A stretch of 64,000 nucleotides of DNA from an uncultured Acidobacteriota bacterium (GCA_963731545.1 CAVSWN010000004.1:1-64000), one strand, 5' to 3'; numbered from the stretch's first letter, positions 33,986-60,498 are shown. A program made the numbers and translations. The notes: generated from the sequence alone by a model not told the origin.

Positions 33986-34624
33986 GTGCGCCGCTCTCTC
34001 TGGATCGCGATTCCTGCCGGCCTTGTCGCGTTTGCGCTCGCGTTCACTCTCGTGCCGCCGAGCGGTCCGCGATCGATGCGGCAGTTCAATCCGAGCCGGC
34101 TCGCCGATCTCGAGCTGCGGATGTGGAAGGCGTACTACGCCAAGGAGCGCGCGCAGCTGTTTGGTCTGCTGGTGACGATGCTGCACGAGCAGTATCGGTA
34201 TTCATGGGCGACGGCGACGCGCGAAGCGTTTCATCTCGCTCGCGCGGCCGCCACGTTCGGCGACTTGAAAGGCGACTACGAGCAGGTGCTGCCGGATCTC
34301 GAAGCCGGGTACACGACGGCGAAGTCGTGGCTCGGCGCCGGCTTCGATCCGAAGGCTGTCGCGCGGGCGGAGTTGGCGTGGTGGGTCGCGCGCCGCGTGC
34401 CGGGGCAGAACAGCGCGGAGCAGGTCGGACGCCTCATCGCCGAGGAGTACGCGCTCTTGTACGAAACATCCGTCGAGCGCGTGGCGGAGGCGGCGCTCCT
34501 GCGCGCCACGGCGGCGAAGCTCCGGGATGAACAGGCTTCGCAGCCGGACTGGGCCCGCATCGGGCAGTTGCTGGACGCCTCGTACCGCGAGCTGCTGGCC
34601 GCGCTGGCAGTCGAGAATGTCTAG
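33986..34624 (+). CDS. Hypothetical membrane-anchored protein
   Basis: GTG start, N-terminal TM (RRSLWIAIPAGLVAFALAFTLV). Confidence 0.5.
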   Translation: MRRSLWIAIPAGLVAFALAFTLVPPSGPRSMRQFNPSRLADLELRMWKAYYAKERAQLFGLLVTMLHEQYRYSWATATREAFHLARAAATFGDLKGDYEQVLPDLEAGYTTAKSWLGAGFDPKAVARAELAWWVARRVPGQNSAEQVGRLIAEEYALLYETSVERVAEAALLRATAAKLRDEQASQPDWARIGQLLDASYRELLAALAVENV

Positions 34625-35870
34625 CGCCACAGCGGTCGCGACGCCGCTCACCTTCCGCGACGTGTTGCGCATCGATGTCATCCGGCGCATCTGGTACGCG
34701 CAGTTGGTCAGCCTGTTCGGAGATTTCCTCGCGCTGTTCGCCGTTATCGCCGTCGTGTCGTTCCGCATGCACGGCACACCGTCACAGCTCACCGGCGTGC
34801 AGATCGCCTACATGCTGCCGATAGTGTTCGTCGGCCCGATCGCCGGCGTGTTCGTGGATCGCTGGCCGCTCAAGCCGACGCTGATCGCGAGCGATCTCCT
34901 GCGCGCGGTGCTGGCAGTGCTGCTGATCGTGTCCTCCCAGTTGTGGCACGTGTATCTCGTCCTGGCCGCGGTGAGCTGCGTGTCGGCGTTCTTCGCTCCG
35001 GCGCAGACGGTGGCCATCCGCACGCACGTGCCCCCGAACGGGCTGGTGTCGTCCAACGCGCTGATGCAGATGGCCTTCATGGGCAGCCGCATCGTCGGAC
35101 CGGTGGCGGCCGGCGCCATCGTCGCCGCATTCGGTCCGGCGATCTGCTACGCCGTCGACGTGGCGAGCTTCATGGCATCGGCGGCGCTGATTGGATCCGT
35201 GGCCATCGCGCGCGCCGTGCTCGGCGCCGGGCGATCGGAGTCGTCGAGCAACCGCATCCACGCGCTGTGGCTGGACATGCGCAAGGGCGTGCGATTTCAT
35301 CGTCCATCACGCCGCGCTGCTGTTCGTGGTGCTGGCCATGGCGGCGGGACTGTTCACGATCGGCTGCTTCGCGCCGCTGATCTCGATTTACGTCCGCGAC
35401 ACGCTGCACGGCGATTCGGGCTCTTCGGCATCGTCAGCGGCGCGGTCGGCTTCGGGATGATTCTCGGAACCCAGGTGGTGCGAAAGCTCACCACGCGTCT
35501 CTCGCACGAGACGCTCGTGCTGTCGGGTCTCGCCGGCATCGGCGCCGGCGTGTTCATCCTTGGCGCGGTGCCGCTCGCGGCCGCGACGTTGACCGCCACG
35601 TTCACGATCGGGTTCGCGTTCAGAGCGATCATGGTGCCGGCCCAGACGCTGACGCAGCGCGAGACGCCGCCGGACATGCTGGGACGCGTCTCGAGCACGC
35701 AGATCTCGGTCCTGTTTCTCGCCCAGATTCTCGGGCTGGTGCTGTCAGGCACCCTGGCCGATCTCTTCGGCGTGCGCGATCGTGTTTTTTCTGTGCGCCG
35801 GGCTGTCGCTGGCACTGGTCGGCGCCGGCAGACTCTTCCTGCGATCGGGATTCGAGTTCGCGGGCCTGAA
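34617..35870 (+). CDS. MFS transporter, with frame changes (~35290)
   Basis: MSSATAVATPLTFRDVLRIDVIRRIWYAQLVSLFGDFLALFAVIAVV… 12-TM-like pattern continuing in second frame (…LFVVLAMAAGLFTIGCFAPLISIYVRDTL…). Confidence 0.6.
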
Positions 35871-35930
35871 AGGCCCGCGCTACACCAGCGTGAGGGCAGT
35901 TCGTAGGGCGGCCCTTTCAGCGGCCGCCGA
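35858..35930. repeat. Inverted REP pair
   Basis: GCGGGCCTGAAAGGCCCGCGCTACACC … GTAGGGCGGCCCTTTCAGCGGCCGCC. Confidence 0.6.
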
Positions 35931-37250
35931 TCCTCAGCGATGCTGTAGAGGAACTGGTAGCTGCGCAGATAGATCTCGTTGTCGACGAGGGCCGGCGACG
36001 CATCGAACCCGTCATCCAGCTTGTTCTTCGCCAGCACCTCGAACGCCGGACCGTGCTTGATGACGAGCGTCATGCCTTCGCGCCCGGGGAAGTACACGCG
36101 GCCCTGGGCGCCGACCGGCGAGGCGAACACGTTCGGCACGCCGTCGAGGCGCTGCAGCTGATAGTGCGGCGTCCCGCTCTTCGCATCGAACGCGGAGAGG
36201 ATGCCGGAATTGGTTTTCAGGAAATAGAGAATGCCGTCGTAAAGCAGCGGCGAGGGCACGTACAGGCGTGTCGCGATCGAGCGTCCACGCTTCGGCGCTT
36301 GGATGCTGACAGGTCGCCCTTCGCGTCGGCCAACCGGATCGCGCGCAGCCGATTGCCCCGGAAGCCGCTCATCAGGAACACCATGCCGTCCGCCGCCACC
36401 GGCGACGGAATCGGATTCATCGTCAGACCCGGGCCTTCCCAGACGATCTGGCCGGTTCTCGACGTCGTAGCTCCGCACCTTGCTCATCGCCGGCGCGATC
36501 ACCTGCGCGCGGCCGCCGTGCTCGACGACCAGCGGCGTGGCCCAGGTGTCGATCTCTTCGCGGTTGGCGCGCCACAGCTTCCTTGCCGGTCGCGCGCGTC
36601 GAGCGCCACGATGAACGACTGCCCCTGATGGTCCCAGACGATGACGAGGCGATCGCGGTAGAGGACAGGCGTGCTGCCCTCGCCGAACTGGTTGCGCATC
36701 TTCTTGTCGCCGAGGTCCTTCTGCCAGAGCGGCTTGCCGTCCATGTCGTAGACGTACATGCCCTGGGACTCGAACCACGCGTAGACGCGCTGGCCGTCGG
36801 TGATCGCCGAGCTCGACGCGTACGTGCCGTTCTCGCCGTGCGCGGCTTCGTGCGGCAGTTCTTCGCGCGCCGTCCGCTCCCAGACCGTCTTGCCGGTCCG
36901 CCGATCGATGGCGAGCACGACGAAGCGGTAGCGGTCGCGCGGCCGCAGCCCGCCGCGCGGCTCGTGCGCGGCGGCGCCGGTGACGCCGACCGGGACCGCC
37001 GACAGGACGAACACGCGGTCGTTCCAGACGACAGGCGACGCCGAGCCGCGGCCGGGCATCTCCACCTTCCAGCGAATGTTCTTGGTCTCGCTCCACTCGA
37101 GCGGAGGGTTGGCGGTTCTCGACACGCCCGTGGCATAGGGCCCGCGCCACTGGGGCCAGAACCGTTCGTTCGGGTTCGATTGCGCCGCCGTCGCGCCTGC
37201 GGCGCTCTGGCGTGCCAAGGCTGCGGGCACCGCGGCGGTCACAACGCGCG
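35890..37250 (-). pseudogene. PQQ-like beta-propeller repeat protein (BamB-like), paralog 1; several frame changes
   Basis: …WPQWRGPYATGVSRTANPPLEWSETKNIRWKVEMPGRGSASPVVWNDRVFVLS… (ORF 36499..37242) and C-terminal …LYVPSPLLYDGILYFLKTNSGILSAFDAKSGT…VDNEIYLRSYQFLYSI within ORF 35354..37648. Confidence 0.55.
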
Positions 37251-37318
37251 ATCAGCGCCGCGAGCGGCAATCGTCCGATCATCGCGCGAGTGTACGTATG
37301 GGCTTTTACCTGTGGAAA

Positions 37319-38476
37319 CGATGAATGGTCCTTTCGATTTTCAGCTGCGCACCCGCATGGTGTTCGGCGACGGCGCGCTGGCTCGGCTGGGGGATCTCGC
37401 GCGTGAGTTGGCGTTTTCGCGCACGCTCGTCGTCGCGGATCGCGGCCTCGTCGCGGCGGGGCACGTCGACCGTGCGATCGCGATCCTGGACGGACGCGTC
37501 GATCGCGACGTGCCGCTTTCACGAGTTTGGCGCCAATCCGGACGCGCGAATGGTCGAGGCCGGACGGCGCGTACGCCGCCGAGGGAGCGATTGATTCCAT
37601 CGTCGCGCTCGGCGGCGGCAGCTCGCTCGATTGCGCCAAGGGCATCAATTTCGTGCTTCACCAACGGCGGCACGATGCGCGACTACCGCGGGTTCGGCAA
37701 GGCGGCGCGGCCGATGCTGCCGTCGATCGGCGTCCCGACGACGGCGGGGACGGGCAGCGAGGCGCAGAGCTACGCGCTGATTTCGGATGCGGAGACGCAC
37801 GAGAAGATGGCGTGCGGCGATCCGAAGGCCGCGTTCCGGATCGCGATTCTCGATCCCGCCTTGACCGTGTCGCAGCCGCGGGAGGTGACCGCCGTCGCCG
37901 GCTACGACGCGATCTCGCACGCGGTCGAGTCGTACGTCACGACGCGGCGGACGCCGATGTCGAGCCTGTTCGCGCGCGAGGCGTGGACGCTGCTCGAGGG
38001 CCACTACGAGCACGTGCTGCGCGAGTCCACGCGACCTGGCGGCGCGCGGCGCCATGCTGCTGGGCGCGCACCAGGCCGGCGTCGCGATCGAGCAGTCGAT
38101 GCTCGGCGCCACGCACGCCTGCGCCAATCCGCTGACCGCGCGTCACGGGACGACGCACGGCGTGGCGATTGCCGTGATGCTGCCGCACGTCGTGCGCTGG
38201 AACGCCGGCCACGTCGGCGACTCGCTACGCGGACTTGCTGCGGACAGCCCGACGGATCCGCGGATGACGCAGTCGACGCGGCCAATCGCCTGGCCCATCG
38301 CCTCGAAGTGCTCGCGCGGGCCGGCGGCCTGCCGGCGACGCTGCAGCGACCTGGGCGTCCCGCGGGACGGATTGTCGGCCCTGGCCGCGGATGCTGCGAC
38401 GCAGTGGACCGGGACGTTCAATCCGCGGCCGTTCGATGCCGCCGCCGCGCTCGCGCTGTACGAGCGCGCGTTTTGA
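37319..38476 (+). CDS. Iron-containing alcohol dehydrogenase family protein; multiple frame changes
   Basis: MNGPFDFQLRTRMVFGDGALARLGDLARELAFSRTLVVADRGL… / IDSIVALGGGSSLDCAKGINFVL / …GVPTTAGTGSEAQSYALISDAETHEKMACGDPK… / …GTTHGVAIAVMLPHVVRWNAGHV…. Confidence 0.65.
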
Positions 38477-41400
38477 GGACCGGCGCTTCCGGCAGGTGAC
38501 GGCTCAGATAGTCGGCCACAACCTGCACGTGCGGCGGCTGAAGCAGCGTGAGGTGCTCGCCCGGCACGTCGTAGATCCTCAGCTCGCGCTTGATCAGGTG
38601 TCCCCACCCGAATGTGCCGCCGCGCCGGCTCGTGTCCGCTGAGGCTTTCGTGCGGAAAAGGATCGCGGACCCGTCGTACGGCGTTGGCCGATACCTGCGG
38701 ACGGCGAGGTCCTGAGCGATTCGCACATTTGACGTCTGCACGCGAATCCGTTCTCCGGACCGTTCGCGACGCCGGTACGCGCGGTCGCAGCCGAGCCCGT
38801 TCGCGCCACGCTCTGATGATCTCGAGAACGAGCCCGGGCCTGTCGATCCATTTCTGGGCGAGCAAACGACGCGTGTGCTTCAGCGAAGTTCTCTCAATGG
38901 CGAGCCATCTGTATTTGAGCGATTCGAGTGGCGGTAGCCGTTTGGGACGTCCAAGCGCCGGCGAGTCGAAGAGCGCCAGCACGGCGACTTCCTCTCCCTC
39001 CGCGCGCAGCCGGCCCGCGACTTCCACGGCGATGCTGCCGCCGAGGCTCCAGCCGGCCAGACAGTACGGGCCGGACGGTTGCAGGCGCCGGATTTCGCCG
39101 GCGTAGTGCGCCGCCATGTCCTCGATGCGAACGTGCGCCGGCTGGCGTCCGTCGACGCCGAGCGCCTGGAGTCCGTAGAGCGGCTGGTCGCTGCCCAGCG
39201 CCGCGCTCAGATCGCGGAACCCGAGCACGCCGCCCCCCAGTCCGTGCACGCAAAAGAGCGGCGCCTTCGATCCGAAGGGCTGAATGGACACCAGCGACGT
39301 GTCGTCGGGCGCACAGCGCGACCGGATCGCAGCCGCCAGCTGTTCGACGGTCGGCGCCTGGAACAAGGCCGACGCCGGCAGCCTTGCGCCGAAACGTATG
39401 GCGATGTGATCGAAGACGCGAATGGCGGCCAGCGAATCGCCGCCCAGATCGAAGAAGTTGTCCATGGCGCCGATCGAGGGGATCCCGAGCAGTTCCTCCC
39501 AGATCGCTGCCAGTTCGCGCTCGGTCTCGTCGCGCGGCGCGACGAAGCCGCGCGCGTCCCGAAACGGCTGGCGGCGACGGGAGCGCGCGCCGGTCCACTT
39601 TGCCGTTCGGGCTCAAAGGCAATGCGTCGAGCATCACGAATGCAGCGGGGATCAGCTCCTGCGGCAGCGTCGACTGCGCGAAGGCGCGCAAGGCGGCCGC
39701 CGACACCGGTGCGTCGTCGCGACAGACGACGTACGCGGTCAGGAGTTGGTCGCGACCCGATGTCGCGCGCACCGCGACGAGACATCGCTCGACGGCCGGG
39801 TGCGCGAGCAGCGCCGCTTCGATCTCCGCCGGCTCGATTCGGAAGTCCTCGAATCTTCACCTGATGATCGAGGCGGCCGAGAAAATCGATATTGCCGTCA
39901 GGCAGGTATCGCGCCAGGTCGCCGCTCTTGTACATGCGCGCCCCGGGCCGATCGACAAACGGATCGGGCACGAACGCGCGCGCTGTCAGGTCCGGCCGCT
40001 TCCAGTAGCCGCGGCCCACCGGCACGCCAGCGATGTGCAATTCCCCCGGAACGCCCGACCGGCACCGGCGTGCAATCGCGCGATCGAGGATGTGCATGCG
40101 CGCGTTGGCGATGGGCCGGCCAATCGGAACCGTCTCGGGAGTGGCGCCGCGCTCGCACCGCCATGACGTGACCTCAACCGCCGTCTCGGTCGGTCCGTAC
40201 AGGTTGAAGAGATCCGCGCCCAGACGATCGAAGAACTTGGCTTGAACCTCCGGCCGGAGCGCCTCGCCGCTGGTGATGACGTAGCGCAGGCTCGTGCACT
40301 GCGTGACATCGGGCTCGTCGAGGAACACATCGAGCATCGGCGGCACGAAGTGGATGGTCGTGATGTGCTCGCTGCGAATCAGCCGCGACAGGTAGGCGTT
40401 GTCCTTGTGCCCTCCGGCCGCGCCAGCACCAGCCGCGCACCCGCAATCAACGGCCAGAAGAGCTCCCAGACCGACACGTCGAAGCTGACCGGTGTTTTCT
40501 GGAGCACGCTGTCCGACGTGCCGAAGCTGAAACGCCTCCTGGCCCCAGAGGAGCCGGTTCGCCACCGCACGATGCGGGTTCATCGCGCCCTTCGGCTGAC
40601 CCGTCGAACCAGACGTGTAGATGACGTAGGCGAGGTGCTCGACCGACATCTCGACGTCGAGATTCTCGTCGCGACACATCGCCCGCACCTCGGGCGCATC
40701 CACGCACACGACACGAGCCTCGGACCGCGGGAGACGCGCAACGAGGTGTCGCTGGGTGAGGACGACCGGCGGTTCGGCGTCGCCGATCATGAACGACAGG
40801 CGCGCGGGCGGGTAGGCCGGATCGAGAGGCACATACGCGCCACCCGCCTTCAGAATGGCGATCAAGCCGACCATCAAGTCGAGCGAACGGTCGATGCACA
40901 CCCCAACCAGGACGTCCGGTCCGACGCCCAACTCGCGCAGTTCCGATGCGAGCCCGTTCGCACGCTGATTGAGCTCGCGATATGTGAGGTGGCTGCCTTC
41001 GCAGGTAACCGCCACGGCATCTGGCGTGCGCGCGACCTGCTGCTCGAAGAACTGATGCACCAGCAGCTGCGGGTAGTCGACCGCGGTGTCGTTCCACTCG
41101 ATCAGCAGTCGCCGGCGCTCGGCCTCCGACAGCGTCGCCGCGGTCGAGTACCGAGGCGATGGGCGCGTCCGGCATCTCGATGGCCTGCTCGAGTAGACGC
41201 TGGAAGCGTGGAAGCACGTCAGGCGCACGCTCTGGAGCAAAGGCGGCGGGTCGATAGTGCAACCGTACGCTGAGCCCCATCCTCATGCGGTTTGACGTAC
41301 AGGAGCAGATCGAGCTGCGGCATCTGCGCGGCGACATCGAGCGGAGCAAACGTCACACCGCCGCCGGTCTCCCGCGCGTACGCGTGATCGACGAAATCGA

Positions 41401-44214
41401 ACATCACGTTGAACAGCGGCGTTCGGTCGTGGCCCTTCGGCACCCCCATCGCGTCAACGAGCAGCGGAAACGGAAGCGACTGATGCGCGTACCCACGCAG
41501 CGATGCGTCACGCACGCGATTGAGCAGCTCGGCGAACGTCGGATCGCCGGACAGGTCGGTGCGGAGAACCACGGCATTGACGAAGCACCCGATGAGATGC
41601 TCGAAGCTCCGGCCGGCTGCGGCCGGCGACGGGAACGCCGATGACGATGTCGTCCTCGTCCGTCAGACGGCTCAGTAGCAGTTGAAAGACGCTCGCCAGC
41701 GTCATGAAGAGGCTGACGTGCCGGTTCCGGCTGAAGCTCCGGAGACGTTCGGCGAACTGCCGCGAGAAGACGATCGATTCGGTGAGCTGCCGCACGCTGC
41801 TTGCCGCCGGCGCGCCATGAGCCGCAGGCAACGGCAGACGATCCGGTGCTCCAGCCAGTTGCGACTTCCAGAATGCGATCGACGGCGCCACGGCGTCGGC
41901 CGTGAACGCGTGCCGTTCCCACTCGGCAAAATCCGCGAACTGACACGGGAGCTCGCCGAGTGACGGCGCACGGCCGCGCACGAAGGCGTCGTAACCCGCA
42001 ACCAGCTCGCTCGCCAGGACCCGACGCGACCAGGCATCGGCCACGATGTGATGCATGTCGATCTGGAGCAGATGCTCGTCGCGTCCAACAGCGCATCAAC
42101 GACGCGCGGATGAGCGGTCCCTGCGCGAGGTCGAACGGCCGATCCGAGTCCGCTCGAGCAACGATGTCGAGGGAGAGGGCCAGCGTCGGCGCAACCTTCT
42201 GGATTGGGTGGCCGTCCGGTGCCGGGAACGTCGTTCGCAGGATCTCGTGCCGACGCACGATCTCGTTGAGACTCCGTTCGAGCGCCGGGACGTCAAGCGG
42301 ACCGTCGAGGCGCAGCGACATCGACACGTTGTAGGCCGGGTTCTGCGGATCCAGCTGGCTCAGAATCCAGATGCTGTGTTGGGTGTGCGAGAGCGCGGCG
42401 CCGTCCGGCGCGCGTCGAAGCGGGACGTCTGGGCGCGCCGTGCGGCAGCGGTCCACAGTCGACGAGAGTTGCGTCGCCATCTCCGCCACGGTGGGCGCGT
42501 CGAGAAAGCGAAGCATCGATATTTCGGCACCGGTCGTTTGCTCCAGCCGCGACAGGATCTGCGTCGCGAGAATCGAGTCTCCGCCCAGCGCAAAAAAGTT
42601 GTCGTGAACGCCGACCGACGCGACTCCGAGCACCTGCGCCCAGAGACCGCATAGCAGCTCCTCGACAGCGTTTCGTGGCGGTTCGGCGGCGACGGGCTCC
42701 GTCGCTTCGGCGCTGCTCGCGATCCCAAGCCTTGCTGCCAGGCCGATACGCTGTGGCTTGCCGGTCGGGCCTGTCGGAATGCCGTCGACGAACTCGATTC
42801 GGCGCGGAACCTTGAAATCGGCGAGATGACCCGACGCGAACTCGCGCAGCTGCTCCGCCGCGACGGACGCGTGCTCATGAACGACGACGGCCGCAGCGAC
42901 CTCCTCTCCCAGCCGGGCATCGGGCACGGCAAAGACGATCGCGCTCGCGACCGCTGGGTGTTGCGTCAGGACCTCCTCGACCTCGCGTGGCGAGACCTTC
43001 TCGCCGCCGCGATTGATGATCTCCTTGGTTCGGCCGCTGAGGAACACGTAGCCGTCGGCGTCGATCCAGCCTCGATCTCCTGTGGTTAGCCAGCCGTCGC
43101 CGACGACGTTCGGCCCCCGGATGATGATGTCGCCCTCGCGTCCCGCGTCGAGCTGGTTGCCGAGATCGTCCAGCACGGCGACGTCGGAGCCCGCGGCGAT
43201 CCCGACCGATCCTGGCTTTCGCGCGCGCGGTGGCAGGGGATTGCTGGCGATTTGGTGTGCGGCTTCCGTCATCCCGTAGGCTTCGATGACCGGAACGCCA
43301 AATGATGGATTCGAGCTCGGACATCAACGATGTCGGCAGCGCGGCCGAACTCGGAGCGCACGAATCGCAATCGGGATCGCGTCACGCTCGCTCGGTGGTG
43401 CGACGCGCGCGCCACGATCGCCGCGATGCATCGTCGGCACGGCCGTGTACCAGGTCGGCGCGAACTCGTCGCATCCAGTCGAAGAACTTCGGCGCAAGAA
43501 AGCCGGGTGCGCACACCACGCTGGCGCCGGCGGCGATAGACGAGATGAGCGCCCCGGCCAGACCGTGAATGTGAAACAGCGGCATCACGTTCAGGCAGCG
43601 ATCGCTCGGCGTGAAGATCCGAACGCATCCGCAGTGTTCCGCGCCGAGTGCCACAGGTTCGCATGCGTGAGCGCCACGGCCTTCGCGTTCCCCGTCGTTC
43701 CCGATGTATTCAAGACGAGCGCGACGTTGTTTGCGCTCGCGAGAGCCGGCCGCCGGGCGGAAGCGATGGCGGCCGGGATGTGGACTGAAAAGAGGCCGGC
43801 CGGTTCATCCGCGATCGGTGACAGGTCGATCACCGGAATTCCGAGAGCGCTCGCAACCGCGCGCGCAGGCGATGGCACCGTCGCCTGCACGATGAGGGCT
43901 CTCACCGACAGGCCGTGGAACACGGCGTGGAATTCGTCAGCGCGATACGACGGGTTCAGCGGAACGCAGGCGGCAGCCGCCGACACCGCCAGGAATGCCG
44001 TGGCCATGTCCGGGCCGTTGGCAAGGACGATCGCCACACGGTCGTCCTCGCCGATGCCATGTTCGTTCAGGAGAGCGGCGGTTTCGGAAACATGGCGCCA
44101 CAGCCGCGCGTAAGACATTGGCGGCCGACCGGGCGCAAGCAGAGCGATCGCGTCCGGTTGAGCAGCGGCCTGGTCTTCCAATAGGTGATAAACGCACGTG
44201 CGGCCACGAAGCAT
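38418..44214 (-). CDS. Bimodular non-ribosomal peptide synthetase: A(starter, acyl-CoA synthetase/FAAL-like)-T-C-A-T-TE; many frame changes
   Basis: N-term LVLNTSGTTGNAKAVALTH…GEKVSPREVEEVL; PCP FFALGGDSILATQILSRL; C-domain MHHIVADAWS (HHxxxD); A2 LTYRELNQRANGLASEL…YTSGSTGQPKG…; PCP FFDLGGDSLAAIRVF; TE LFCVHGLGGG…GWSLGGSIAVEVA. Confidence 0.8.
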
Positions 44215-44219
44215 CGGAC

Positions 44220-44897
44220 CTACACGACCACCGCACCCGTCAGAATGAGCTCATCCATAACCAGAGTCCACCAGCCCTCAATTCTTATATCAGCGGCATC
44301 GAGCGCTGCGGTGAACACGCCTGCACCAGATTGCAATCGAATTTCAGGAAAGTCCACGAAGCGCTGGAGGCCTGGCGAGAGCGCCTTGATGACCGATTCC
44401 TTCGCGCTGAACATCAGCGCGAGTGGCGGCGCCCACGAGGGGAGTGCGGGCGACTGTACGTCGCCGTCGCGTGCATGGGCGAGCAAATGGTGGGCGTCAA
44501 CCGGGAGGCTTTCTGCGCCGGAGCGGTCCAGCAGGTCGATGCCCAGCGCTTTCCACGTCGTGCACGGCGCGGCGACCGCCGCACACGCGCCGGTTGTGTG
44601 TGAGATGGATCCCGTCATGCCCCTCGGCCACAGCGGGTTGCGCCACGCACCGACAGGAATCGGTGCCGGCGCGACGCCAAGCTCGGCCAGCGCCTGCCGG
44701 GCGCACCACCGGCCGGCCGCGAACTCGTCGCGGCGTCGCGGCACGGCTCGCTGAACGTGCGCCTCTTCCTCGGGGAACAGCGGCTGGCTGCCGTCGATCA
44801 CGGCGACACCGACGCCTGAGGAAGGACCGAACCACTCGCGCATGCGGCCGGCCACGCGTTCGAGCAATTCCAGTTCCGTGAATTCCGCGCTTCGCAA
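44220..44897 (-). CDS. 4'-phosphopantetheinyl transferase (Sfp/EntD type)
   Basis: …EAHVQRAVPRRRDEFAAGRWCARQALAELG…GSISHTTGACAAVAA…LGIDLLD…FSAKESVIKAL. Confidence 0.75.
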   Translation of the reverse strand: MRSAEFTELELLERVAGRMREWFGPSSGVGVAVIDGSQPLFPEEEAHVQRAVPRRRDEFAAGRWCARQALAELGVAPAPIPVGAWRNPLWPRGMTGSISHTTGACAAVAAPCTTWKALGIDLLDRSGAESLPVDAHHLLAHARDGDVQSPALPSWAPPLALMFSAKESVIKALSPGLQRFVDFPEIRLQSGAGVFTAALDAADIRIEGWWTLVMDELILTGAVVV

Positions 44898-44913
44898 GAC
44901 TATGATGGAGATT

Positions 44914-46253
44914 TTAATGGAGTCGACGATGGAGCGAAGAGTTCGTCTCGCAATCGGTACTGGCGCTGGGAATCGGCGGAGCTCCGGTGGCGGCGGATTG
45001 GCCGAGCTGGCGCGGCCCGAACGGTTCGGGCATCACCGACGATGCGAACGTGCCGGATCGGTGGAGCGCCGCTGAGAACCTCGTGTGGAAGGCGCCGCTC
45101 GCCGGCCTCGGCGTGTCGTCGCCCATCGTCGTCCGGCGATCGTGTGTTCGTGACCTCGCAGGTCGGCTCCGGCGTTCGGCGTCCCGGCAATCACCCGCGG
45201 CTCGCGCAGGGTTCGGCCGCGGCGTCGGCGGGAGAGCGCCCGCTGCCCGTGTCGGCCGAGGATCGCACGATGTTCGTCGTCGAGGCGTTTCAGCGGAGCG
45301 ACGGCCGGCGGCTCTGGCAGTACCGCGCCGAAGCGGTGGGCCCGCTGCCCGGCGTGCACGACAAACACAACCTCGCGAGTCCAAGCCCCGTCACCGATGG
45401 GCAGATGGTTTATGCGTGGTTCGGCACCGGGCAGGTCGTCGCGCTCGACATGAACGGCAAGCTGGTGTGGGAACGGAATCTGGGCAAGGAAAATTCACCG
45501 TTCGACATCAACTGGGGCCACAGCAGCTCGCCGACGCTGTTTCAGGATTCGCTGCTTCTCCTCTGCGATCATCAGCCGGCGGCGTACCTGCTCGCGGTCG
45601 ACAAGCGCACCGGCAAGGATCGCTGGAAGACCGATCGCGGCCGCGGACGGATGTCGTACACGACGCCGTTCGTCGTCAACGCGCCCTCAGGTCCCGAGCT
45701 GATCGTCAACTCGAGCGAGCGTGTTGACGCGTACGATCCGCGGAACGGCGCTTTCCTCTGGCACGTGGGCGGCAGCAACCAGTTTCCGATTCCCGCGCCG
45801 ACGTTCCACGACGGCGTCGTCTACATGAGCCGCGGCTACCGCAGCGGCCCGTTCATGGCCCTTCGTCCGGGCGGTCGCGGCGACATCTCCTCGTCGCACG
45901 TCGTCTGGCAGGTCAACACCGGCGCGCCCTACATCTCGTCTCTGGTGTACGACGCGGGCCTGGTGTTCATGGCCAACGACGTCGGGGCGTTGATGGCGTT
46001 CGATGCGGCGACCGGCGCGAAGGTGTGGCAGGAGCGCGTGGACGGGATTTTCTCGGCGTCGCCCGTGGCAGCCGGCGGGAAGATCTATTTCGTGAGCGAG
46101 ACCGGCGAAACGATCGTCGTGCGATCCGGGAAGCAGCCCGCCGTCATCGCGAAGAACGACATCGGTGAACGGCTGATCGCGTCGCCGGCCGTGTCGAAGG
46201 GCCAGATCTTCCTGCGCAGCGACGGGCAGTTGTTCTGCGTGGGGAAGCGCTGA
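44914..46253 (+). CDS. PQQ-like beta-propeller repeat protein, paralog 2; frame change ~45120
   Basis: …AADWPSWRGPNGSGITDDANVPDRWSAAENLVWKAPLAG… then ORF 45042..46253 frame …SPVTDGQMVYAWFGTGQVVALDMNGKLVWERNLG…. Confidence 0.65.
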
Positions 46254-46255
46254 TG

Positions 46256-46378
46256 TCGCGGCCCTGAAAGGGCCGCGCTACGACTGCGCCGGCCATGACC
46301 ACCGCGACCGAGCACGTGTGGGTGTAGCGCGACCCTTTCAGGGTCGCGTCTGGTGTAGCGCGACCCTTTAGGGTCGCG
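46256..46378. repeat. Cluster of three REP elements
   Basis: GTCGCGGCCCTGAAAGGGCCGCGCTACGACTGCGCC; GGTGTAGCGCGACCCTTTCAGGGTCGCG; TGGTGTAGCGCGACCCTTTAGGGTCGCG. Confidence 0.8.
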
Positions 46379-46880
46379 TTCGAACCAGCAGCGCCGCGAA
46401 CCCGGGCAGATACGCGACGATCCAGCTCACGAAGTGGGTCGCGTAGTCCCATCCGCGCGGGTCGAACGGAAACCAGATCCCCGAGATCGCGTAGAACCCC
46501 AGGCCTGATCCCGCCGCCGCGAGCACGCTGCGCACGAGGACGGCGCGAATGCTGTCGCGCTGCTCGAGCACGCGGCCGGTCAGGAGACCGAGGCCGACCC
46601 ACAACGCCACGAAGAGCACGAAGAGCGCCGAGTAGCCGATGAGCGGCTGCAGCAGGTAGAAGCCGCCGGTGGCTGCCAGGCCGATCGCGGCGCCGCCGGC
46701 CGCACCGGCGAGCGGCTTGCGCGCGGGCAGGCCGAGGCACAGGCCCACGGTGACGAACAGGATCGCGCCGTGCGCGAACCAATAGATCGGAATGCCGTGC
46801 GGCAGCACGTTGGCCCAGAGGTAGTCGCCGATCGTGCTGACCACGGCCGTGACGAGCGCGCCGATCAGCGCCGCTGTCAC
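46368..46880 (-). CDS. Polytopic membrane protein (hypothetical)
   Basis: 170-aa ORF, 4-5 hydrophobic helices. Confidence 0.45.
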   Translation of the reverse strand: MTAALIGALVTAVVSTIGDYLWANVLPHGIPIYWFAHGAILFVTVGLCLGLPARKPLAGAAGGAAIGLAATGGFYLLQPLIGYSALFVLFVALWVGLGLLTGRVLEQRDSIRAVLVRSVLAAAGSGLGFYAISGIWFPFDPRGWDYATHFVSWIVAYLPGFAALLVRTRP

Positions 46881-46937
46881 GCCGTCACCAAGTGTTCTTT
46901 TTCGTGTCTTCGTGTTTTCGTGGTTGCATTTTCGTCG

Positions 46938-48284
46938 TCAATCCGGCAATTCCTCGCGCTTCGGCTCGGGCAGCCAGTAGCTCGCCACGAGACCCAGCAC
47001 GTAGGCGGCCGTTCCGACAATCGCAGACGCGTACGCGAGCTTCGTCGGCAGGGTCGCGCCAGGCATGAGATCGGTCAACTGCGTCGTGAGCAGCGCGGCG
47101 GACGTGCCGAACATCCGTCCGCCGACGTTGGCGGCGAAGCTTTCTCCGGTCCCCCGGAGATGCGTGGGATAGACGCGCGGCAGGTAGTTCCCCCAGAAAC
47201 TGAACTGGCCGATCGTCGTGATTCCGTAGAAGAAGATCCCCAACTCGAGCATCGTCAGGCTGCTCGTGCCGGCCACGGCGAAGACGAACGGAACGATGAG
47301 CAGCCCAGGCACTTGAAAGAGCCGAACGAGCGTGCGGCGGCTTGCAATCCGAATCGCGAGAAACGCCATCAGGATGCGGCCGGTCAGCCCGCCGAACTCC
47401 TGGAACGACTGCACGGCGCTGACCGTCTGCTCGACCGCGGCGCGCGGCAGCCCGCGCAACTCCTCGAGGCCGGGCACGATGCGCGGCGCCTGCTGGATCG
47501 CGCCGAACGCCGCCGCGTACGCGGCGGCCATCATGATGGTCGTGACGATCGTCGTCGTGCGAAATTCCGGACGGAACAGCTCGCCGAAGCTCGGGCGCCT
47601 GAGCGTGCCCGCTCGCTTCTGCTCCATCCAGGTGGGCGATTCGGGCAGAAACGGCCGGACGAGGATGAGCGGGATCGCCGGGATCAGGCCGGACATCAGC
47701 GTGTATCGCCAGGCCTCGTGTCCACCGCGCACCTGCGGGCAGCAGATGGCCGTAGGTGACGGCGAGGTAGTAGCCGGCCGTGGCCATGATGCCGCCGATC
47801 GATCCCAGGGTCTGCGTGTAGCCGACGATCGCCTCGCGCTGTTTCGGGTTGGGGAACAGCTCCGAGAGCCAGGCGACGGCGGCCACGAACTCCACGCAGA
47901 CGCCGACGAAGGTGCAGCAGCGCCAGAAGAGCAGCCATCCGACCGAGGTCGCCAGCCCGCGCCATGAACGCGGACACCGCGTAGAGCAGGATGCTCCACA
48001 CGAGGACCGCGCGGCGGCCGAAGCAGATCGGTGAGATAGCCGCCGAGGAGCCCGAAGATGCCGCCGGCCACGGCGGGCACGTAGAAGAGGATGCCGACCC
48101 ACTCGTTGACCGCGGGACTGTTCGGCGGCACGCCCAGCAACTCGGCGAGGGCCGGCCGGGCGATGAGCGGCAGCATGAGCAGCTCGTACGAGTCGAACGC
48201 GAAGCCGATCGCGGCGATGACGACGATCACCCATTGGATGGGCGTCAGGCGCGGCGCGGCCGCGTCGGCGTGGGCGGGCGTCAT
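46938..48284 (-). CDS. MFS transporter, frame changes
   Basis: ORFs 46938..48284 and 46885..48234 alternate coding-like hydrophobic segments (…IQWVIVVIAAIGFAFDSYELLMLPLIARPAL… / …VGWLLFWRCCTFVGVCVEFVAAVAWLSELFPNPKQRE…). Confidence 0.55.
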   Translation of the reverse strand: MTPAHADAAAPRLTPIQWVIVVIAAIGFAFDSYELLMLPLIARPALAELLGVPPNSPAVNEWVGILFYVPAVAGGIFGLLGGYLTDLLRPPRGPRVEHPALRGVRVHGAGWRPRSDGCSSGAAAPSSASAWSSWPPSPGSRSCSPTRNSARRSSATRRPWDRSAASWPRPATTSPSPTAICCPQVRGGHEAWRYTLMSGLIPAIPLILVRPFLPESPTWMEQKRAGTLRRPSFGELFRPEFRTTTIVTTIMMAAAYAAAFGAIQQAPRIVPGLEELRGLPRAAVEQTVSAVQSFQEFGGLTGRILMAFLAIRIASRRTLVRLFQVPGLLIVPFVFAVAGTSSLTMLELGIFFYGITTIGQFSFWGNYLPRVYPTHLRGTGESFAANVGGRMFGTSAALLTTQLTDLMPGATLPTKLAYASAIVGTAAYVLGLVASYWLPEPKREELPD

Positions 48285-51799: not shown

Positions 51800-52290
51800 T
51801 TCATGGCCACGCTCGTCTTCGCCGCCCTGGCCGTCTCCGCCACGCTGACGTCGGTTTCCAACGTATTCAGTGACCTTCTGCACATTCGAGCGCGCGATCG
51901 CGATTCACGACCGCGGCCGTCGTGGATCCAGCGAGATCGCAGTTGCTGCAAAGTGCCGATGCCTTTCGGTTTGGAATTCCTGCGTACACTTTCATGCCCG
52001 ATCACGTCCACATACTCGCTCTCGGAGAGTCGCTCGACTCCGATCTCGAGCGTTCGTCGGCGAATGAAGCAGAAGACCGGATTTGAGTTCAAGCAGGCGC
52101 GTCGCGCGCCGCTGTGGCAGGAAGGCTACTACGATCGCATTCTGCGGAACGACGAGCAGACGATCGTCGTGTCGCGAGGTACATCCTGGACAATCCAGTG
52201 CGAGCTGGGCTGGCGGAAGACGTTCGACAGCTATCCATTCTCGGGCTCGAACAGATACACGCATGGAAGAACTGGCGGATGCGCTCCAAT
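51800..52290 (+). pseudogene. REP-associated tyrosine transposase (RAYT, IS200/IS605 TnpA-like), frameshifted
   Basis: …FRFGIPAYTFMPDHVHILALGES (HxH motif) / …KQKTGFEFKQARRAPLWQEGYYDRILRNDEQ (catalytic Y region) / …VSRYILDNPVRAGLAEDVRQ in three frames. Confidence 0.65.
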
Positions 52291-52326
52291 CGCAGGGCTG
52301 AAGCCCTGCGCCACGCTCTACTGCGG
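52291..52326. repeat. REP element (right flank of RAYT)
   Basis: CGCAGGGCTGAAGCCCTGCGCCACGCTCTAC. Confidence 0.7.
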
Positions 52327-52449
52327 TGCGAGAGCCGCGGTCGAGGGCGTTATACTACGCGATCATGTCTGCGGGTCCTTCTACCACGCTCCATCGCATC
52401 GGTATCGTCTGCGGCTGTCACGGCTTCTCGGGAGGCGCTCGACGCCTGG

Positions 52450-53487
52450 GTGCGCGAAGTCGTCGACTGGCATTTCGATCCGGGAACGGGATGTCCGTTC
52501 TGGCTCGACTTCGCCGCGAAGGCCGGCTGGGATCCGCGGCGCGACGTGAAAACGTTTGCCGACCTCAACAAGTTCGGCGCGTTTCAGGACGAGTGGCTGC
52601 GTGGCGGGCCGGTTCAGCGCTGGATTCCCAAGGGCCTCGCGGGCAAGCCGGTGTTCGTTTTCGAAACCGGCGGGACGACCGGCGTGCCGAAGACGCGCGT
52701 GGCCTTCGAGGATTTCCGAACCGACTACGAACTGTTCAGCGAGACGCTGCCGGACGAGTTCTTCCCCAAGGGATCGAACTGGCTGATGCTCGGACCGTCG
52801 GGACCACGGCGTCTGCGGCTCGCGGTCGAGCACCTCGCGCAGTATCGCGGCGGCATCTGTTTTTGCGTCGATCTCGATCCGCGCTGGGTCATCAGGCTGA
52901 TCCAGAAAGGCTGGGGCGATCACCTGCAGGCGTACAAGGACCACGTGATCGACCAGGCGATCACGATTCTCGGGGCAGGACACGACATCCACTGCCTGTT
53001 TGCGACGCCGAAGCTGCTCGAATCGCTGGCGCTCCGGCTCGAGGCGAATGGCAAGACGATTCGCAAGGCCGGGATTACGGGAATTTTTTCGGGCGGCACC
53101 GAGTTTACGCCCCAATGGAACCGTTTCGCGCACGAAGAGCTCCTCGACGGCGCGTACATGACGCCCACCTACGGCAACACGCTGATGGGTCTGGCCGCGA
53201 GCGCGCCGAGCGGTCCGCACAACGACTACAAGATCACCTACTACGCGCCGCAGCCGCGCGCGGTGATTGAAGTCGTCGATCTCGACCACCCGGACCGCAT
53301 CGTCGAGTACGGCCAGACCGGACGCGTGAAGTTGACGACGCTGACGAAAGAGTTCTTCATGCCGGGCTTCCTCGAGCGCGACGAAGGCGAGCGCGAGCCG
53401 CCGTACGAAAAGTTCCCGTGGGATGGCATCAGCGGTGTGCGGCCGTTCCGCGCATTTGCGGCAACGACCACAGTGGGCGTGTACTAG
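52450..53487 (+). CDS. Adenylate-forming enzyme of the PaaK / F390-synthetase / LuxE (acyl-protein synthetase) / CapK superfamily; start uncertain
   Basis: …KPVFVFETGGTTGVPKTRVAFEDF… (AMP-binding core motif), ~346+ aa. Confidence 0.55.
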   Translation: MREVVDWHFDPGTGCPFWLDFAAKAGWDPRRDVKTFADLNKFGAFQDEWLRGGPVQRWIPKGLAGKPVFVFETGGTTGVPKTRVAFEDFRTDYELFSETLPDEFFPKGSNWLMLGPSGPRRLRLAVEHLAQYRGGICFCVDLDPRWVIRLIQKGWGDHLQAYKDHVIDQAITILGAGHDIHCLFATPKLLESLALRLEANGKTIRKAGITGIFSGGTEFTPQWNRFAHEELLDGAYMTPTYGNTLMGLAASAPSGPHNDYKITYYAPQPRAVIEVVDLDHPDRIVEYGQTGRVKLTTLTKEFFMPGFLERDEGEREPPYEKFPWDGISGVRPFRAFAATTTVGVY

Positions 53488-57008: not shown

Positions 57009-57125
57009 AACCACGCGAGGTCACGGTGGAAGAACCGAGGTCACTGTCATCGAGGATCGCAACCAGATCGGAACCGTGTCCTCGTTCGTGCTCGTGTCAC
57101 CGTGGTAGTGCATTTGTAACGGACA

Positions 57126-58103: not shown

Positions 58104-58104
58104 A

Positions 58105-59100: not shown

Positions 59101-59128
59101 GGGCCTAAAAGGCCCGCGCTACAACTGC
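59068..59128. repeat. Inverted REP pair located between permease segments 2 and 3
   Basis: GTCAGTAGCGCGGCCCTTTCAGGGCCGCG … GCGGGCCTAAAAGGCCCGCGCTACAACTGCC. Confidence 0.75.
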
Positions 59129-59147
59129 CCGGCCGTCGGCGGCGAGC

Positions 59148-60494: not shown

Positions 60495-60498
60495 ACGA

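What the first reader, a model, noticed from the sequence alone, without database searches (positions are those of the whole stretch)
37319..44897. Compact NRPS locus (A-T-C-A-T-TE + Sfp-type PPTase + Fe-alcohol dehydrogenase) bracketed by inverted PQQ-propeller paralogs
The minus strand encodes an ~5.8 kb bimodular NRPS with an N-terminal acyl-CoA-synthetase/FAAL-like starter A domain, suggesting an N-acylated di- or amino-acid product. A dedicated PPTase lies immediately upstream and a convergent Fe-ADH overlaps the TE end. The locus is flanked by an MFS transporter and by two divergent PQQ-like beta-propeller paralogs in inverted orientation (35890-37250 minus, 44914-46253 plus). The product is unknown; a small lipopeptide or N-acyl amino acid with reductive tailoring is plausible. 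Every gene in the locus shows frame changes, so functionality is uncertain.
Basis: partly seen in the sequence, partly recalled or inferred. Interest (0 to 1): 0.7.

Follow-up and report, generated by a model that had tools for sequence, protein, structure and literature searches.

The report
Small NRPS with oxalate-type starter
A two-module peptide-synthetase gene and its activating enzyme sit in a soil Acidobacteria genome. Their many frame breaks are most likely sequencing errors. The starter domain resembles oxalyl-CoA synthetase rather than a fatty-acid loader, so the predicted product is an N-oxalyl-serine-like molecule, not a lipopeptide.

Summary
The described genes are there. The minus strand carries a PPTase (44220-44897) and then an A-T-C-A-T-TE NRPS (about 38493-44214). 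A convergent Fe-ADH, two PQQ_2-type propeller paralogs and an MFS_3 transporter flank them.

The interpretation needs four corrections.

1. The roughly 16 frameshifts in the NRPS are not specific to the locus. The whole window has about five to ten times more frame switches than clean loci. No stop codon remains after correction, and two related contigs (L084, L145) carry intact orthologs. Assembly indel error is therefore much more likely than gene decay.

2. The starter A domain is not FAAL-like. Its best solved relatives are oxalate-CoA ligases (AtAAE3, E=6e-98), and the oxalate-specific pocket residues Ser289 and His319 are conserved. Module 2 carries a serine-type specificity code (DVWHISLVEK).

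3. The Fe-ADH and both propellers are conserved core-genome flanks. Close relatives have PQQ_A, Fe-ADH, PPTase and PQQ_B with exactly the NRPS ORF missing.

4. The PPTase persists in relatives that lack the NRPS.

The predicted product, N-oxalyl-L-serine or a derivative, is an inference and has not been shown. Overall this is a moderately interesting, accessory, minimal NRPS with an unusual starter.

The parts
44220..44897 (-). Sfp/EntD-type 4'-phosphopantetheinyl transferase, 225 aa, no frameshift. Its stop codon lies 5 nt before the NRPS start.
   Evidence: Pfam 4PPT_N 6e-27 and ACPS 3e-9. NCBIfam best matches are PptT, Npt and EntD, all below cut-off. Colinear with orthologs in L145, L151 and L107 at 62-65% identity, with the GIDL[LV]DR and FSxKE motifs conserved.
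38493..44214 (-). Bimodular NRPS A1-T1-C-A2-T2-TE, about 1,890-1,905 aa after correction. In this assembly it is broken by about 16 indels.
   Evidence: Pfam on fragments. Frameshift-aware alignments to L001 (42% identity) and to the intact ortholog L084:11137-16737 (66.2% over 1851 aa, 16 frameshifts, 0 stops).
42757..44214 (-). A1, the starter adenylation domain, of the oxalyl-CoA-synthetase (AAE3/Pcs60) type.
   Evidence: PDB phmmer: 5ie0 6e-98, 6qjz 9e-95, 8aff 2e-84, then MatB 4e-50. Pocket residues are I/H/S/S/G/M/H/K against AtAAE3 V215 H216 C288 S289 A313 M314 H319 K500.
42470..42700 (-). T1 carrier domain (GGDS motif at about 42585).
   Evidence: Pfam PP-binding 1e-17; coordinate mapping.
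41106..42399 (-). Condensation domain, active-site motif HHIVADA at about 42053.
   Evidence: Pfam Condensation; mapping; sequence.
39580..41048 (-). A2 adenylation domain with specificity code DVWHISLVEK (serine-like).
   Evidence: Pfam AMP-binding 1.5e-74. Four of the five best PDB matches for the pocket region are domains I recall as Ser-activating: Txo1 and Txo2 (6oyf, 6p1j), FscH (6ea3) and EntF (5ja1).
39325..39516 (-). T2 carrier domain (FFDLGGDS).
   Evidence: Pfam PP-binding; mapping.
38493..39264 (-). Type I thioesterase domain (GWSLGG at about 39054, GEH near the C-terminus). The stop codon is not seen where the ortholog ends.
   Evidence: Pfam Thioesterase 6.5e-27; full-length TE in the ortholog; PDB TE hits; stop search.
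37321..38476 (+). Group III iron-containing alcohol dehydrogenase. This is a conserved FLANK, not part of the cluster. It reconstructs to 383 aa with at least 5 frame changes.
   Evidence: 8zrl 7e-54, 3owo, FucO. It is present next to PQQ_A and PQQ_B in relatives that lack the NRPS.
35941..37289 (-). PQQ_2/BamB-like beta-propeller paralog A. Conserved FLANK.
44960..46261 (+). PQQ_2/BamB-like beta-propeller paralog B. Conserved FLANK, with 70-91% identical orthologs in 80 metagenome loci.
34527..35906 (+). MFS_3 (EntS-like) transporter, frame-shifted. It is absent from all 80 relatives' loci. It is a possible exporter, but the association is not shown.
   Evidence: Pfam MFS_3 1.6e-21; no tblastn hit in L083-L162; absent at the corresponding place in L107.

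Best explanation
The locus is a minimal, accessory nonribosomal peptide synthetase operon in a soil Acidobacteriota genome. It consists of an Sfp/EntD-type PPTase followed 5 nt later by one roughly 1,900-aa NRPS with the domain order A1-T1-C-A2-T2-TE.

Shown:
- the domain order and intact catalytic motifs;
- that A1 belongs to the oxalyl-CoA synthetase (AAE3/Pcs60) clade of ANL enzymes and keeps its oxalate-pocket residues;
- that A2 has a serine-type pocket;
- that the NRPS ORF alone is a presence/absence polymorphism among close relatives, while Fe-ADH, the PPTase and both propeller genes stay in place;
- that the frameshifts are a window-wide property of the assembly.

Inferred mechanism: the PPTase primes T1 and T2. 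A1 adenylates oxalate, or a similarly tiny carboxylate, and loads it on T1. A2 loads L-serine on T2. C forms the amide bond. TE releases N-oxalyl-L-serine, either by hydrolysis or possibly with oligomerisation. The gene is most likely intact in the organism, and the roughly 16 indels are errors of a poorly polished long-read assembly.
For: - Architecture: Pfam on the fragments and full-length frameshift-aware alignments.
- Motifs kept: TSGTTG, GMTEA, GWLTTGD, GGDS, HHIVADA, SGSTGQPKG, FDVSVWE, NLYGPTE, NGKVDR, FFDLGGDS, GWSLGG and GEH.
- Starter identity: AtAAE3 5ie0 at E=6e-98, LsOCS 6qjz at 9e-95 and Pcs60 8aff at 2e-84, against MatB at 4e-50.
- Oxalate pocket: PMC8905533 states that the AtAAE3 pocket is V215, H216, C288, S289, A313, M314, H319 and K500, with S289 and H319 conserved only in oxalyl-CoA synthetases. 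The window has I, H, S, S, G, M, H, K, and the orthologs L084 and L145 agree. The same residues hold in about 100 carrier-fused homologs.
- Serine module: the code is DVWHISLVEK, and the pocket region is closest to Txo1/Txo2, FscH and EntF.
- Accessory status: in L151, window 37312-38469 and 44219-44852 are contiguous, so the missing segment is exactly the NRPS. L083 is the same. About a dozen further loci carry the propeller pair, with or without the Fe-ADH, and no NRPS within the fetched flanks.
- Frameshifts as artefact: same-strand frame switches run at 1.26 per kb across the window (NRPS 1.74; other parts 0.83-1.68), against 0.05-0.41 in 13 comparison loci from other assemblies. No stop remains in about 1,890 corrected codons. 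Intact orthologous ORFs exist in L084 (1866 aa) and L145 (978 aa to the contig end). dN/dS is 0.25-0.28. The exact frame-shifted 622-aa product is in NCBI/ENA on a 304,829-nt contig, so the errors are in the deposit.
Against: - No experiment supports oxalate, serine or the product.
- Three of the eight pocket positions differ from AtAAE3 (V215I, C288S, A313G).
- This lineage lacks a 14-residue loop between motifs A6 and A7.
- No oxalate-forming gene and no MbtH-like gene lie nearby.
- The inserted bases are mostly not in homopolymers, so the error model is unidentified. I could not see reads or coverage.
- The TE stop codon is missing where the ortholog ends.
- The PPTase lacks the canonical GxDxE glutamate (GIDLLD), although this is conserved in its orthologs.
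Confidence: 0.6

Rival explanations
1. The cluster is a true pseudogene. The indels are real mutations and the NRPS is dead in this organism.
For: At least 16 frame-disrupting indels lie in 5.7 kb. The NRPS is dispensable, since close relatives lack it. The extra bases are mostly outside homopolymers. The expected stop codon is missing.
Against: The same indel density is found across the whole 64 kb, including conserved core genes such as PQQ_A, MFS, Fe-ADH and an FtsX permease. No nonsense codon remains after frame correction. All catalytic motifs are intact. Another long-read ENA contig (L082) shows the same artefact level.
Confidence: 0.12
2. This is the first reader's model: a FAAL or acyl-CoA-synthetase starter loads a fatty acid, giving an N-acyl amino acid or small lipopeptide that the Fe-ADH then reduces.
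For: A1 is an ANL-type (acyl-CoA-synthetase-like) rather than a canonical amino-acid A domain. The best NCBIfam name is 'FadD7 family fatty acid-CoA ligase', but at 371 bits it is below the 650-bit cut-off. The Fe-ADH abuts the TE end.
Against: The AAE3 oxalate-CoA ligases score about twice as high as any fatty-acid ligase, and no FAAL is among the top 60 chains. There is no FAAL-type insertion; the domain is shorter than AAE3. The tiny polar pocket (Ser, His, Met) is conserved. Release is by TE, so there is no aldehyde to reduce. The Fe-ADH is a core flank present without the NRPS and absent from all 82 NRPS-related loci.
Confidence: 0.05
3. The architecture is the same, but the starter acid is another very small carboxylate (glyoxylate, malonate, glycolate, oxamate or pyruvate) rather than oxalate.
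For: Three of the eight pocket residues differ from plant AAE3, and the A6-A7 loop is shortened. LsOCS itself shows side activity on glyoxylate and malonate (PMC8905533). Malonyl-CoA synthetase is the next closest solved family.
Against: Ser289 and His319, described as conserved only among oxalyl-CoA synthetases, are conserved here and in about 100 homologs. The score gap to MatB is about 155 bits.
Confidence: 0.25
4. The system follows enterobactin-like iterative logic. The TE oligomerises acyl-serine units through the serine hydroxyl into a macrolactone, for example a tris(oxamate) trilactone, which would act as a metal chelator exported by the MFS_3 pump.
For: C-A(Ser)-T-TE preceded by an ANL-type loader and carrier has the same domain logic as EntE/EntB/EntF. 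The PPTase is EntD-like. An EntS-type MFS_3 gene unique to this lineage lies 2.6 kb away.
Against: The TE is not specifically EntF-like; the best hits are 7crn, AB3403 and Pks13. No receptor, TonB or esterase genes were seen. MFS_3 is separated from the operon by two core genes. Nothing here tests iteration.
Confidence: 0.08

Closest known systems
Oxalyl-CoA synthetases AtAAE3 (PDB 5IE0/5IE2/5IE3), LsOCS (6QJZ) and yeast Pcs60 (8AFF)
   Same: A1 aligns end to end (residues 10-489 to 8-504, E=6e-98). It keeps H216, S289, M314, H319 and K500 of the oxalate pocket and all ANL core motifs.
   Different: A1 is fused to a carrier domain and a condensation domain, so the acceptor is a phosphopantetheine arm rather than CoA. 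It carries V215I, C288S and A313G and lacks a 14-residue loop between A6 and A7. The substrate is untested.
Enterobactin synthetase EntE/EntB(ArCP)/EntF with EntD
   Same: An ANL loader with carrier is followed by C-A(Ser)-T-TE. The serine code is close to my recollection of the EntF code, DVWHFSLVDK. The PPTase is EntD-type.
   Different: The loader is not a dihydroxybenzoate-AMP ligase. There are no DHB biosynthesis genes. The loader, carrier and elongation module are fused in one protein. There is no evidence for iterative trilactone formation.
Two-gene A-T plus C-A-T-TE NRPS of Chloroflexia MAGs (L001, L007), and AAE3-like A-T starters in about 25 loci from many phyla
   Same: They have the same starter clade (40-54% identity) with the same pocket. 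L001 and L007 have the same overall domain string.
   Different: Only 42% identical overall. The proteins are split in two, there is no adjacent PPTase, and the genomic context is unrelated. None is characterised.
CoA-ligase-type (CAL) loading domains of NRPS/PKS assembly lines, e.g. fatty-acid, aryl-acid or DHCHC loaders (from general knowledge)
   Same: An acyl-CoA-synthetase-like domain primes a carrier protein at the start of an assembly line.
   Different: The known examples I am aware of load fatty, aromatic or alicyclic acids. A loader from the oxalate clade with a C2-dicarboxylate pocket was not found in the literature searches.
Plant beta-ODAP pathway (AAE3/OCS plus the BAHD acyltransferase BOS)
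   Same: It forms an N-oxalyl amino acid from activated oxalate.
   Different: It works through a free oxalyl-CoA intermediate and a BAHD acyltransferase, and the acceptor is L-2,3-diaminopropionate. Here the chemistry would be thiotemplated and the acceptor is predicted to be serine.

Membership tests
Modular (type I) NRPS | Adenylation, carrier, condensation and thioesterase domains in colinear order | tested here: met
   Pfam domain order A-T-C-A-T-TE on fragments and in the intact ortholog; full-length alignment.
Modular (type I) NRPS | Catalytic motifs: carrier GGxS, C-domain HHxxxD, TE GxSxG plus His, A-domain A3/A5/A10 | tested here: met
   GGDS occurs twice. HHIVADA, GWSLGG/GEH, TSGTTG/SGSTGQPKG, GMTEA/YGPTE and GKxQR/GKVDR are also present.
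Modular (type I) NRPS | One uninterrupted reading frame | tested here: not met
   There are 16 frameshifts in this assembly. Orthologs in L084 and L145 are uninterrupted, and the excess of frame switches is window-wide.
Fatty acyl-AMP ligase (FAAL) starter | Closest relatives are FAALs, and the FAAL-specific insertion in the N-terminal domain is present | tested here: not met
   No FAAL is among the 60 best PDB chains. The top hits are oxalate-CoA ligases. There is no insertion relative to AAE3, and the domain is 14 residues shorter.
Oxalyl-CoA synthetase (AAE3/Pcs60/OCS) clade | Full-length sequence similarity clearly above other ANL families | tested here: met
   332 bits to 5ie0 against 175 bits to MatB and 156 bits to FadD13.
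Oxalyl-CoA synthetase (AAE3/Pcs60/OCS) clade | Oxalate-contacting Ser289 and His319, plus Lys500 | tested here: met
   All three are conserved in the window, L084 and L145 and in about 100 homologs. The residue definitions come from PMC8905533.
Oxalyl-CoA synthetase (AAE3/Pcs60/OCS) clade | Remaining pocket residues V215, H216, C288, A313, M314 | tested here: inconclusive
   H216 and M314 are identical. The substitutions V215I, C288S and A313G are conservative. Position 288 lies at a frameshift site and is read as Ser only after correction.
Oxalyl-CoA synthetase (AAE3/Pcs60/OCS) clade | Oxalate-dependent adenylation with transfer to CoA | not testable with these tools
   This needs an enzyme assay. 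Fusion to a carrier domain implies a pantetheine acceptor, not CoA.
Serine-activating NRPS A domain | Stachelhaus code close to DVWHLSLIDK or DVWHFSLVDK (reference codes recalled from memory) | tested here: met
   The code DVWHISLVEK was read by motif register and from alignments to EntF, Txo1/2 and FscH. L084 has DVCHISLVEK.
Sfp/EntD-type PPTase | 4PPT_N plus ACPS domains and the (F/W)(S/T)xKE motif | tested here: met
   Pfam. FSAKES is conserved in 3 of 4 orthologs and reads FSVKEA in L107.
Sfp/EntD-type PPTase | Mg-binding GxDxE motif | tested here: inconclusive
   The motif reads GIDLLD or GIDLVD in all four orthologs. The acidic residue is shifted by one position.
Biosynthetic gene cluster that includes the Fe-ADH and the PQQ propellers | Accessory genes co-occur with the core NRPS across genomes | tested here: not met
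   The flanking genes are present in relatives without the NRPS (L151, L083, L093, L095, L097 and others). They are absent from all 82 loci found through the NRPS.
Enterobactin-type iterative synthetase | Aryl-acid (DHB) loader and an iterative trimerising TE | tested here: not met
   The loader is of the oxalate-ligase type, and the TE is not specifically EntF-like. Iteration itself cannot be tested here.

The most novel reading that the evidence does not exclude
Oxalyl-CoA-synthetase-derived A-T didomains would form a widespread family of NRPS initiation modules found in many phyla: Acidobacteriota, Chloroflexota, Binatia, Gemmatimonadota, Cyanobacteria, Betaproteobacteria and Thioploca. They would install an N-terminal oxalyl (oxamate) cap. 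In this locus the minimal version would make N-oxalyl-L-serine, a thiotemplated N-oxalyl amino acid that could act as a 2-oxoglutarate mimic or metal chelator. I found no NRPS-made oxalyl peptide in the searchable literature.
Probability: 0.35. Interest if true: 0.65.

Novelty: new variant of a known kind. Interest (0 to 1): 0.42.

Why it matters
If the starter really loads oxalate, NRPS initiation chemistry would extend to a C2 dicarboxylate. A large uncharacterised group of A-T starters in soil and cyanobacterial genomes would then point to 'oxalyl-capped' peptides. N-oxalyl amino acids are classic 2-oxoglutarate analogues, so such products could be antimetabolites or chelators. On the practical side, the case shows that frame-broken biosynthetic genes in long-read MAGs should not be read as dead clusters. 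It also shows that neighbours of an NRPS should be tested against NRPS-less relatives before being called tailoring genes. As it stands, the locus is an ordinary small accessory NRPS with one unusual, testable feature.

Tried and rejected
- GTDB genome scan with an NRPS fragment: it found neither the source nor a close ortholog. The best hit was 53%, and the neighbourhoods were unrelated.
- ENA contigs of P0004 and P0009: these are other noisy long-read contigs with different contexts.
- Rfam and tRNA scans of the window: no hits.
- DNA inverted repeats around the locus: only two short, weak matches, so there is no mobile-element signature.
- MbtH-like motif search in six frames: none found.
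- Literature searches for oxalyl or oxalate with NRPS, loading module, carrier protein or condensation domain: no relevant paper. The fusadapamide paper mentions only plant ODAP.
- NCBIfam: it gave no family above cut-off for A1.
- First frameshift map with the distant guide L001: it produced 19 events, including one spurious double shift at 40172/40155. It also suggested that a 14-aa gap in A1 might be an error. The closer guide L084 reduced the count to 16 and showed that the short loop is a lineage trait.
- Hypothesis that the Fe-ADH or the propellers belong to the cluster: rejected by synteny.
- Hypothesis of recent foreign origin: not supported by composition. GC is 0.66-0.69 inside and outside the locus.

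Full report
**What is in the sequence**

The window is GC-rich (0.60-0.69) with no tRNA or Rfam hit. No single 5.8-kb ORF exists on the minus strand between 38.1 and 44.9 kb.

Pfam on the ORF fragments gives the following, in order:
- 4PPT_N+ACPS at 44220-44897;
- the N-terminal half of AMP-binding at 43591-44214;
- the end of AMP-binding, then AMP-binding_C, PP-binding and the start of Condensation at 41404-43272;
- a complete AMP-binding at 39207-41240;
- AMP-binding_C at 38894-39772;
- PP-binding and Thioesterase at 38143-39465.

On the plus strand, Fe-ADH domains are split over two frames. I wrote a frameshift-tolerant protein-to-DNA aligner that combines BLOSUM62, a codon-usage term and penalties for 1- or 2-nt skips. 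With it I aligned the minus strand 38000-44400 to intact relatives.

Against the Chloroflexia pair L001 (A-T 604 aa plus C-A-T-TE 1329 aa; Pfam), the alignment is end to end at 42% identity. Against the much closer intact ORF L084:11137-16737 (1866 aa, A-T-C-A-T-TE by Pfam), it is end to end at 66.2% identity over 1851 residues. That alignment has 16 frameshift events and no stop codon in the corrected frame. The claimed domain order is therefore correct.

The PPTase stop (44220-44222) lies 5 nt before the NRPS ATG (44214), which fits an operon. The Fe-ADH reconstructs by hand to 383 aa (37321-38476). It is a generic group III alcohol dehydrogenase; the best PDB matches are methanol dehydrogenase, ADH2 and FucO.

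**Are the frameshifts decay or error?**

I segmented the window with a six-frame codon-usage Viterbi model and counted places where coding continues on the same strand in another frame.

| Sequence | Frame switches per kb coding |
|---|---|
| Whole window | 1.26 |
| Window 1-30 kb | 0.83 |
| Window 30-38.4 kb | 1.68 |
| NRPS | 1.74 |
| Window 44.3-64 kb | 1.57 |
| 13 comparison loci from other assemblies | 0.05-0.41 |
| L081 (long-read ENA contig) | 0.54 |
| L082 (long-read ENA contig) | 1.16 |

Homology-guided alignments confirm indels in unrelated conserved genes: 8 in PQQ_A, 2 in PQQ_B, an FtsX permease split at about 59.1-59.6 kb, and the MFS at 46.9-48.3 kb split in several pieces.

Four further points bear on the question.
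- All NRPS catalytic motifs survive.
- Thirteen of the 16 events are single extra bases, and these mostly lie outside homopolymers.
- Orthologous ORFs on other metagenome contigs are intact: L084 is full length, and L145 runs 978 aa to the contig end.
- dN/dS between the window and these orthologs is 0.25-0.28, similar to the PPTase (0.24) and somewhat above PQQ_B (0.14).

The exact frame-shifted 622-aa product of 41404-43272 is present in NCBI/ENA on a 304,829-nt contig. The indels are therefore in the deposited assembly. I conclude, with about 80% confidence, that they are assembly errors. I could not inspect reads.

**What the modules are**

The starter A1 is not FAAL-like. Its best solved relatives are oxalate-CoA ligases: AtAAE3 5ie0 (E=6e-98, 332 bits, aligned over residues 10-489), Lathyrus OCS 6qjz (9e-95) and yeast Pcs60 8aff (2e-84). 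Malonyl-CoA synthetase follows at 4e-50 and fatty-acid or aryl ligases at 1e-44 or weaker. No FAAL is in the top 60.

PMC8905533 states that the AtAAE3 oxalate pocket is formed by V215, H216, C288, S289, A313, M314, H319 and K500. It also states that S289 and H319 are conserved only among oxalyl-CoA synthetases. In the window these positions read I, H, S, S, G, M, H, K. Position 288 sits on a frameshift and reads Ser after correction, which matches the orthologs. L084 has V/H/S/S/G/M/H/K and L145 has A/H/S/S/G/M/H/K.

Among about 110 carrier-fused homologs from the protein search, the motifs are as follows:
- FH-IH-G in 88;
- RFxRS followed by SS in 74 and by CS in 22;
- Y-GM-TE..H in 102 of 111.

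This lineage lacks a 14-residue loop between A6 and A7. Because L084 and L145 share the gap, it is a trait of the lineage and not an error.

The C domain has the motif HHIVADA. Read by motif register, A2 gives the code DVWHISLVEK (L084: DVCHISLVEK). Its pocket segment is most similar to Txo1 and Txo2 (6oyf, 6p1j), FscH (6ea3) and EntF (5ja1). That these domains activate serine, and that EntF's code is DVWHFSLVDK, is from my own knowledge. The TE is an ordinary type I thioesterase with GWSLGG and GEH. No MbtH-like gene is in the window.

**What belongs to the locus**

The source is an Acidobacteriota genome. The intact third propeller paralog (60472-61818) has hundreds of soil-metagenome homologs at 76-89% identity, and the named ones come from Acidobacteria MAGs.

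A metagenome scan with PQQ_B returned 80 loci from close relatives at 70-91% identity. Protein and DNA synteny show the following.
- In L151, window 36904-37168 (PQQ_A), 37312-38469 (Fe-ADH), 44219-44852 (PPTase) and 44960-45615 (PQQ_B) are contiguous. The missing segment, 38470-44218, is exactly the NRPS ORF.
- L083 shows the same Fe-ADH-to-PPTase junction.
- About a dozen longer loci have PQQ_A(-)/Fe-ADH(+)/PQQ_B(+), or PQQ_A(-)/PQQ_B(+), with no NRPS within the fetched flanks.
- L107 keeps the PPTase but lacks MFS_3, Fe-ADH and the NRPS.
- L145 has NRPS, PPTase and PQQ_B arranged as in the window, at 75% DNA identity over 41331-45724.
- L084 carries the orthologous NRPS on the other side of PQQ_B, directly downstream of an MFS and a 172-aa ORF. 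The window homologs of those two genes lie at 46371-48284. L084 has no adjacent PPTase.

None of the 82 loci retrieved through the NRPS itself has a Fe-ADH, PQQ propeller, MFS_3 or PPTase homolog beside it. The only exception is one distant Fe-ADH in L049.

The two propellers are 36% identical in protein, share no DNA-level repeat, and have a third paralog 14 kb away. The 'bracket' and the Fe-ADH are therefore conserved core-genome context. The variable unit is the NRPS gene alone, and the PPTase is retained even where the NRPS is absent. GC content gives no sign of foreign origin. The MFS_3 gene (34527-35906) is found in none of the relatives' loci. It might be a lineage-specific exporter, but two core genes separate it from the operon.

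**Mechanism**

The following steps are inferred. The PPTase converts T1 and T2 to the holo form. A1 adenylates oxalate, or a similarly small acid, and thioesterifies it on T1. A2 loads L-serine on T2. The C domain acylates the serine amine. The TE releases N-oxalyl-L-serine.

My confidence by step is: architecture and accessory status about 0.9, frameshifts as artefact about 0.8, serine about 0.7, oxalate about 0.4.

They are listed with their evidence under the rival explanations.

**Comparison with known systems and novelty**

The system works like a CoA-ligase-primed NRPS and shares the EntE/EntB/EntF domain logic. It meets the tested domain and motif criteria of a type I NRPS, except for the interrupted reading frame in this assembly. 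It fails the FAAL test and the test for 'cluster includes Fe-ADH and propellers'.

A1 meets the sequence and pocket criteria of the oxalyl-CoA synthetase clade, but its activity cannot be tested here. Six full-text literature searches found no NRPS with an oxalate-type loader and no NRPS-made N-oxalyl peptide. The searchable library is incomplete.

About 25 of the GTDB loci, from many phyla, carry the same starter clade ahead of varied NRPS modules. Any novelty therefore belongs to a family and not to this locus alone.

I rate the finding as a new variant of a known kind with moderate interest.

Noticed in passing
window 1-64000: The whole window has about 1.3 same-strand frame switches per kb of coding sequence, against 0.05-0.41 in 13 comparison loci. 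Most events examined are single extra bases outside homopolymers. The deposited 304,829-nt contig is therefore a poorly polished, probably long-read, assembly, and its called proteins are unreliable.
   Followed up: yes
window 38470-44218 compared with L151, L083, L145 and L084: Only the NRPS ORF is present or absent among close relatives. In L084 the orthologous gene (66% amino-acid identity) lies on the opposite side of PQQ_B. It is much more diverged than the flanking genes (84-96%). This suggests repeated gain, loss or relocation.
   Followed up: partly
window 60472-61818 (+): A third, frame-intact PQQ_2/BamB-like propeller paralog is present. Homologs at 76-89% identity are very abundant in soil metagenomes, and the named ones come from Acidobacteria MAGs.
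   Followed up: partly
window 34527-35906 (+): An EntS-like MFS_3 transporter gene is absent from all 80 relatives' loci and is precisely missing in L107. It is a second lineage-specific insertion next to the conserved PQQ_A/Fe-ADH pair.
   Followed up: partly
window 56354-60494 (+): An ABC ATPase is followed by a large permease with two FtsX domains, split over two frames near 59.1-59.6 kb. It resembles the duplicated orphan permeases common in Acidobacteria; that comparison is from my own knowledge.
   Followed up: no
window 2894-4090 (+): One ORF has both an integrase core (rve) and an IstB-like ATPase match. It is probably an IS21-family element whose two genes are merged by an indel.
   Followed up: no
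window 12381-13526 (-): The ORF matches bacterial archaeo-eukaryotic release-factor-like families (baeRF family 10, family 2 and eRF1 domain 3).
   Followed up: no
window 52114-53487 (+): A weak AMP-binding match (E=9e-5) suggests a second ANL-type gene about 8 kb from the locus. L084 ORFs at 18709-19941 have homologs here at 42-50% identity.
   Followed up: no
L084 1043-9779: In the relative that carries the intact NRPS, the upstream neighbours are an aldehyde dehydrogenase, a TPP-dependent enzyme, an Fe-ADH paralog, an FAD-binding oxidoreductase and a GntR/FCD regulator. This could be a small-carboxylate pathway. I did not test whether the TPP enzyme is an oxalyl-CoA decarboxylase.
   Followed up: no
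window about 43100 (A1); L084 and L145 orthologs: The A1 domains of this Acidobacteria lineage lack the 14-residue loop between motifs A6 and A7. That loop is present in AAE3 and in the Chloroflexia homolog L001.
   Followed up: partly
window 44220-44897 (-); L145, L151 and L107 orthologs: The PPTase has GIDL[LV]D where Sfp-type enzymes have GxDxE. The variant is conserved in all four orthologs, including genomes without the NRPS.
   Followed up: partly
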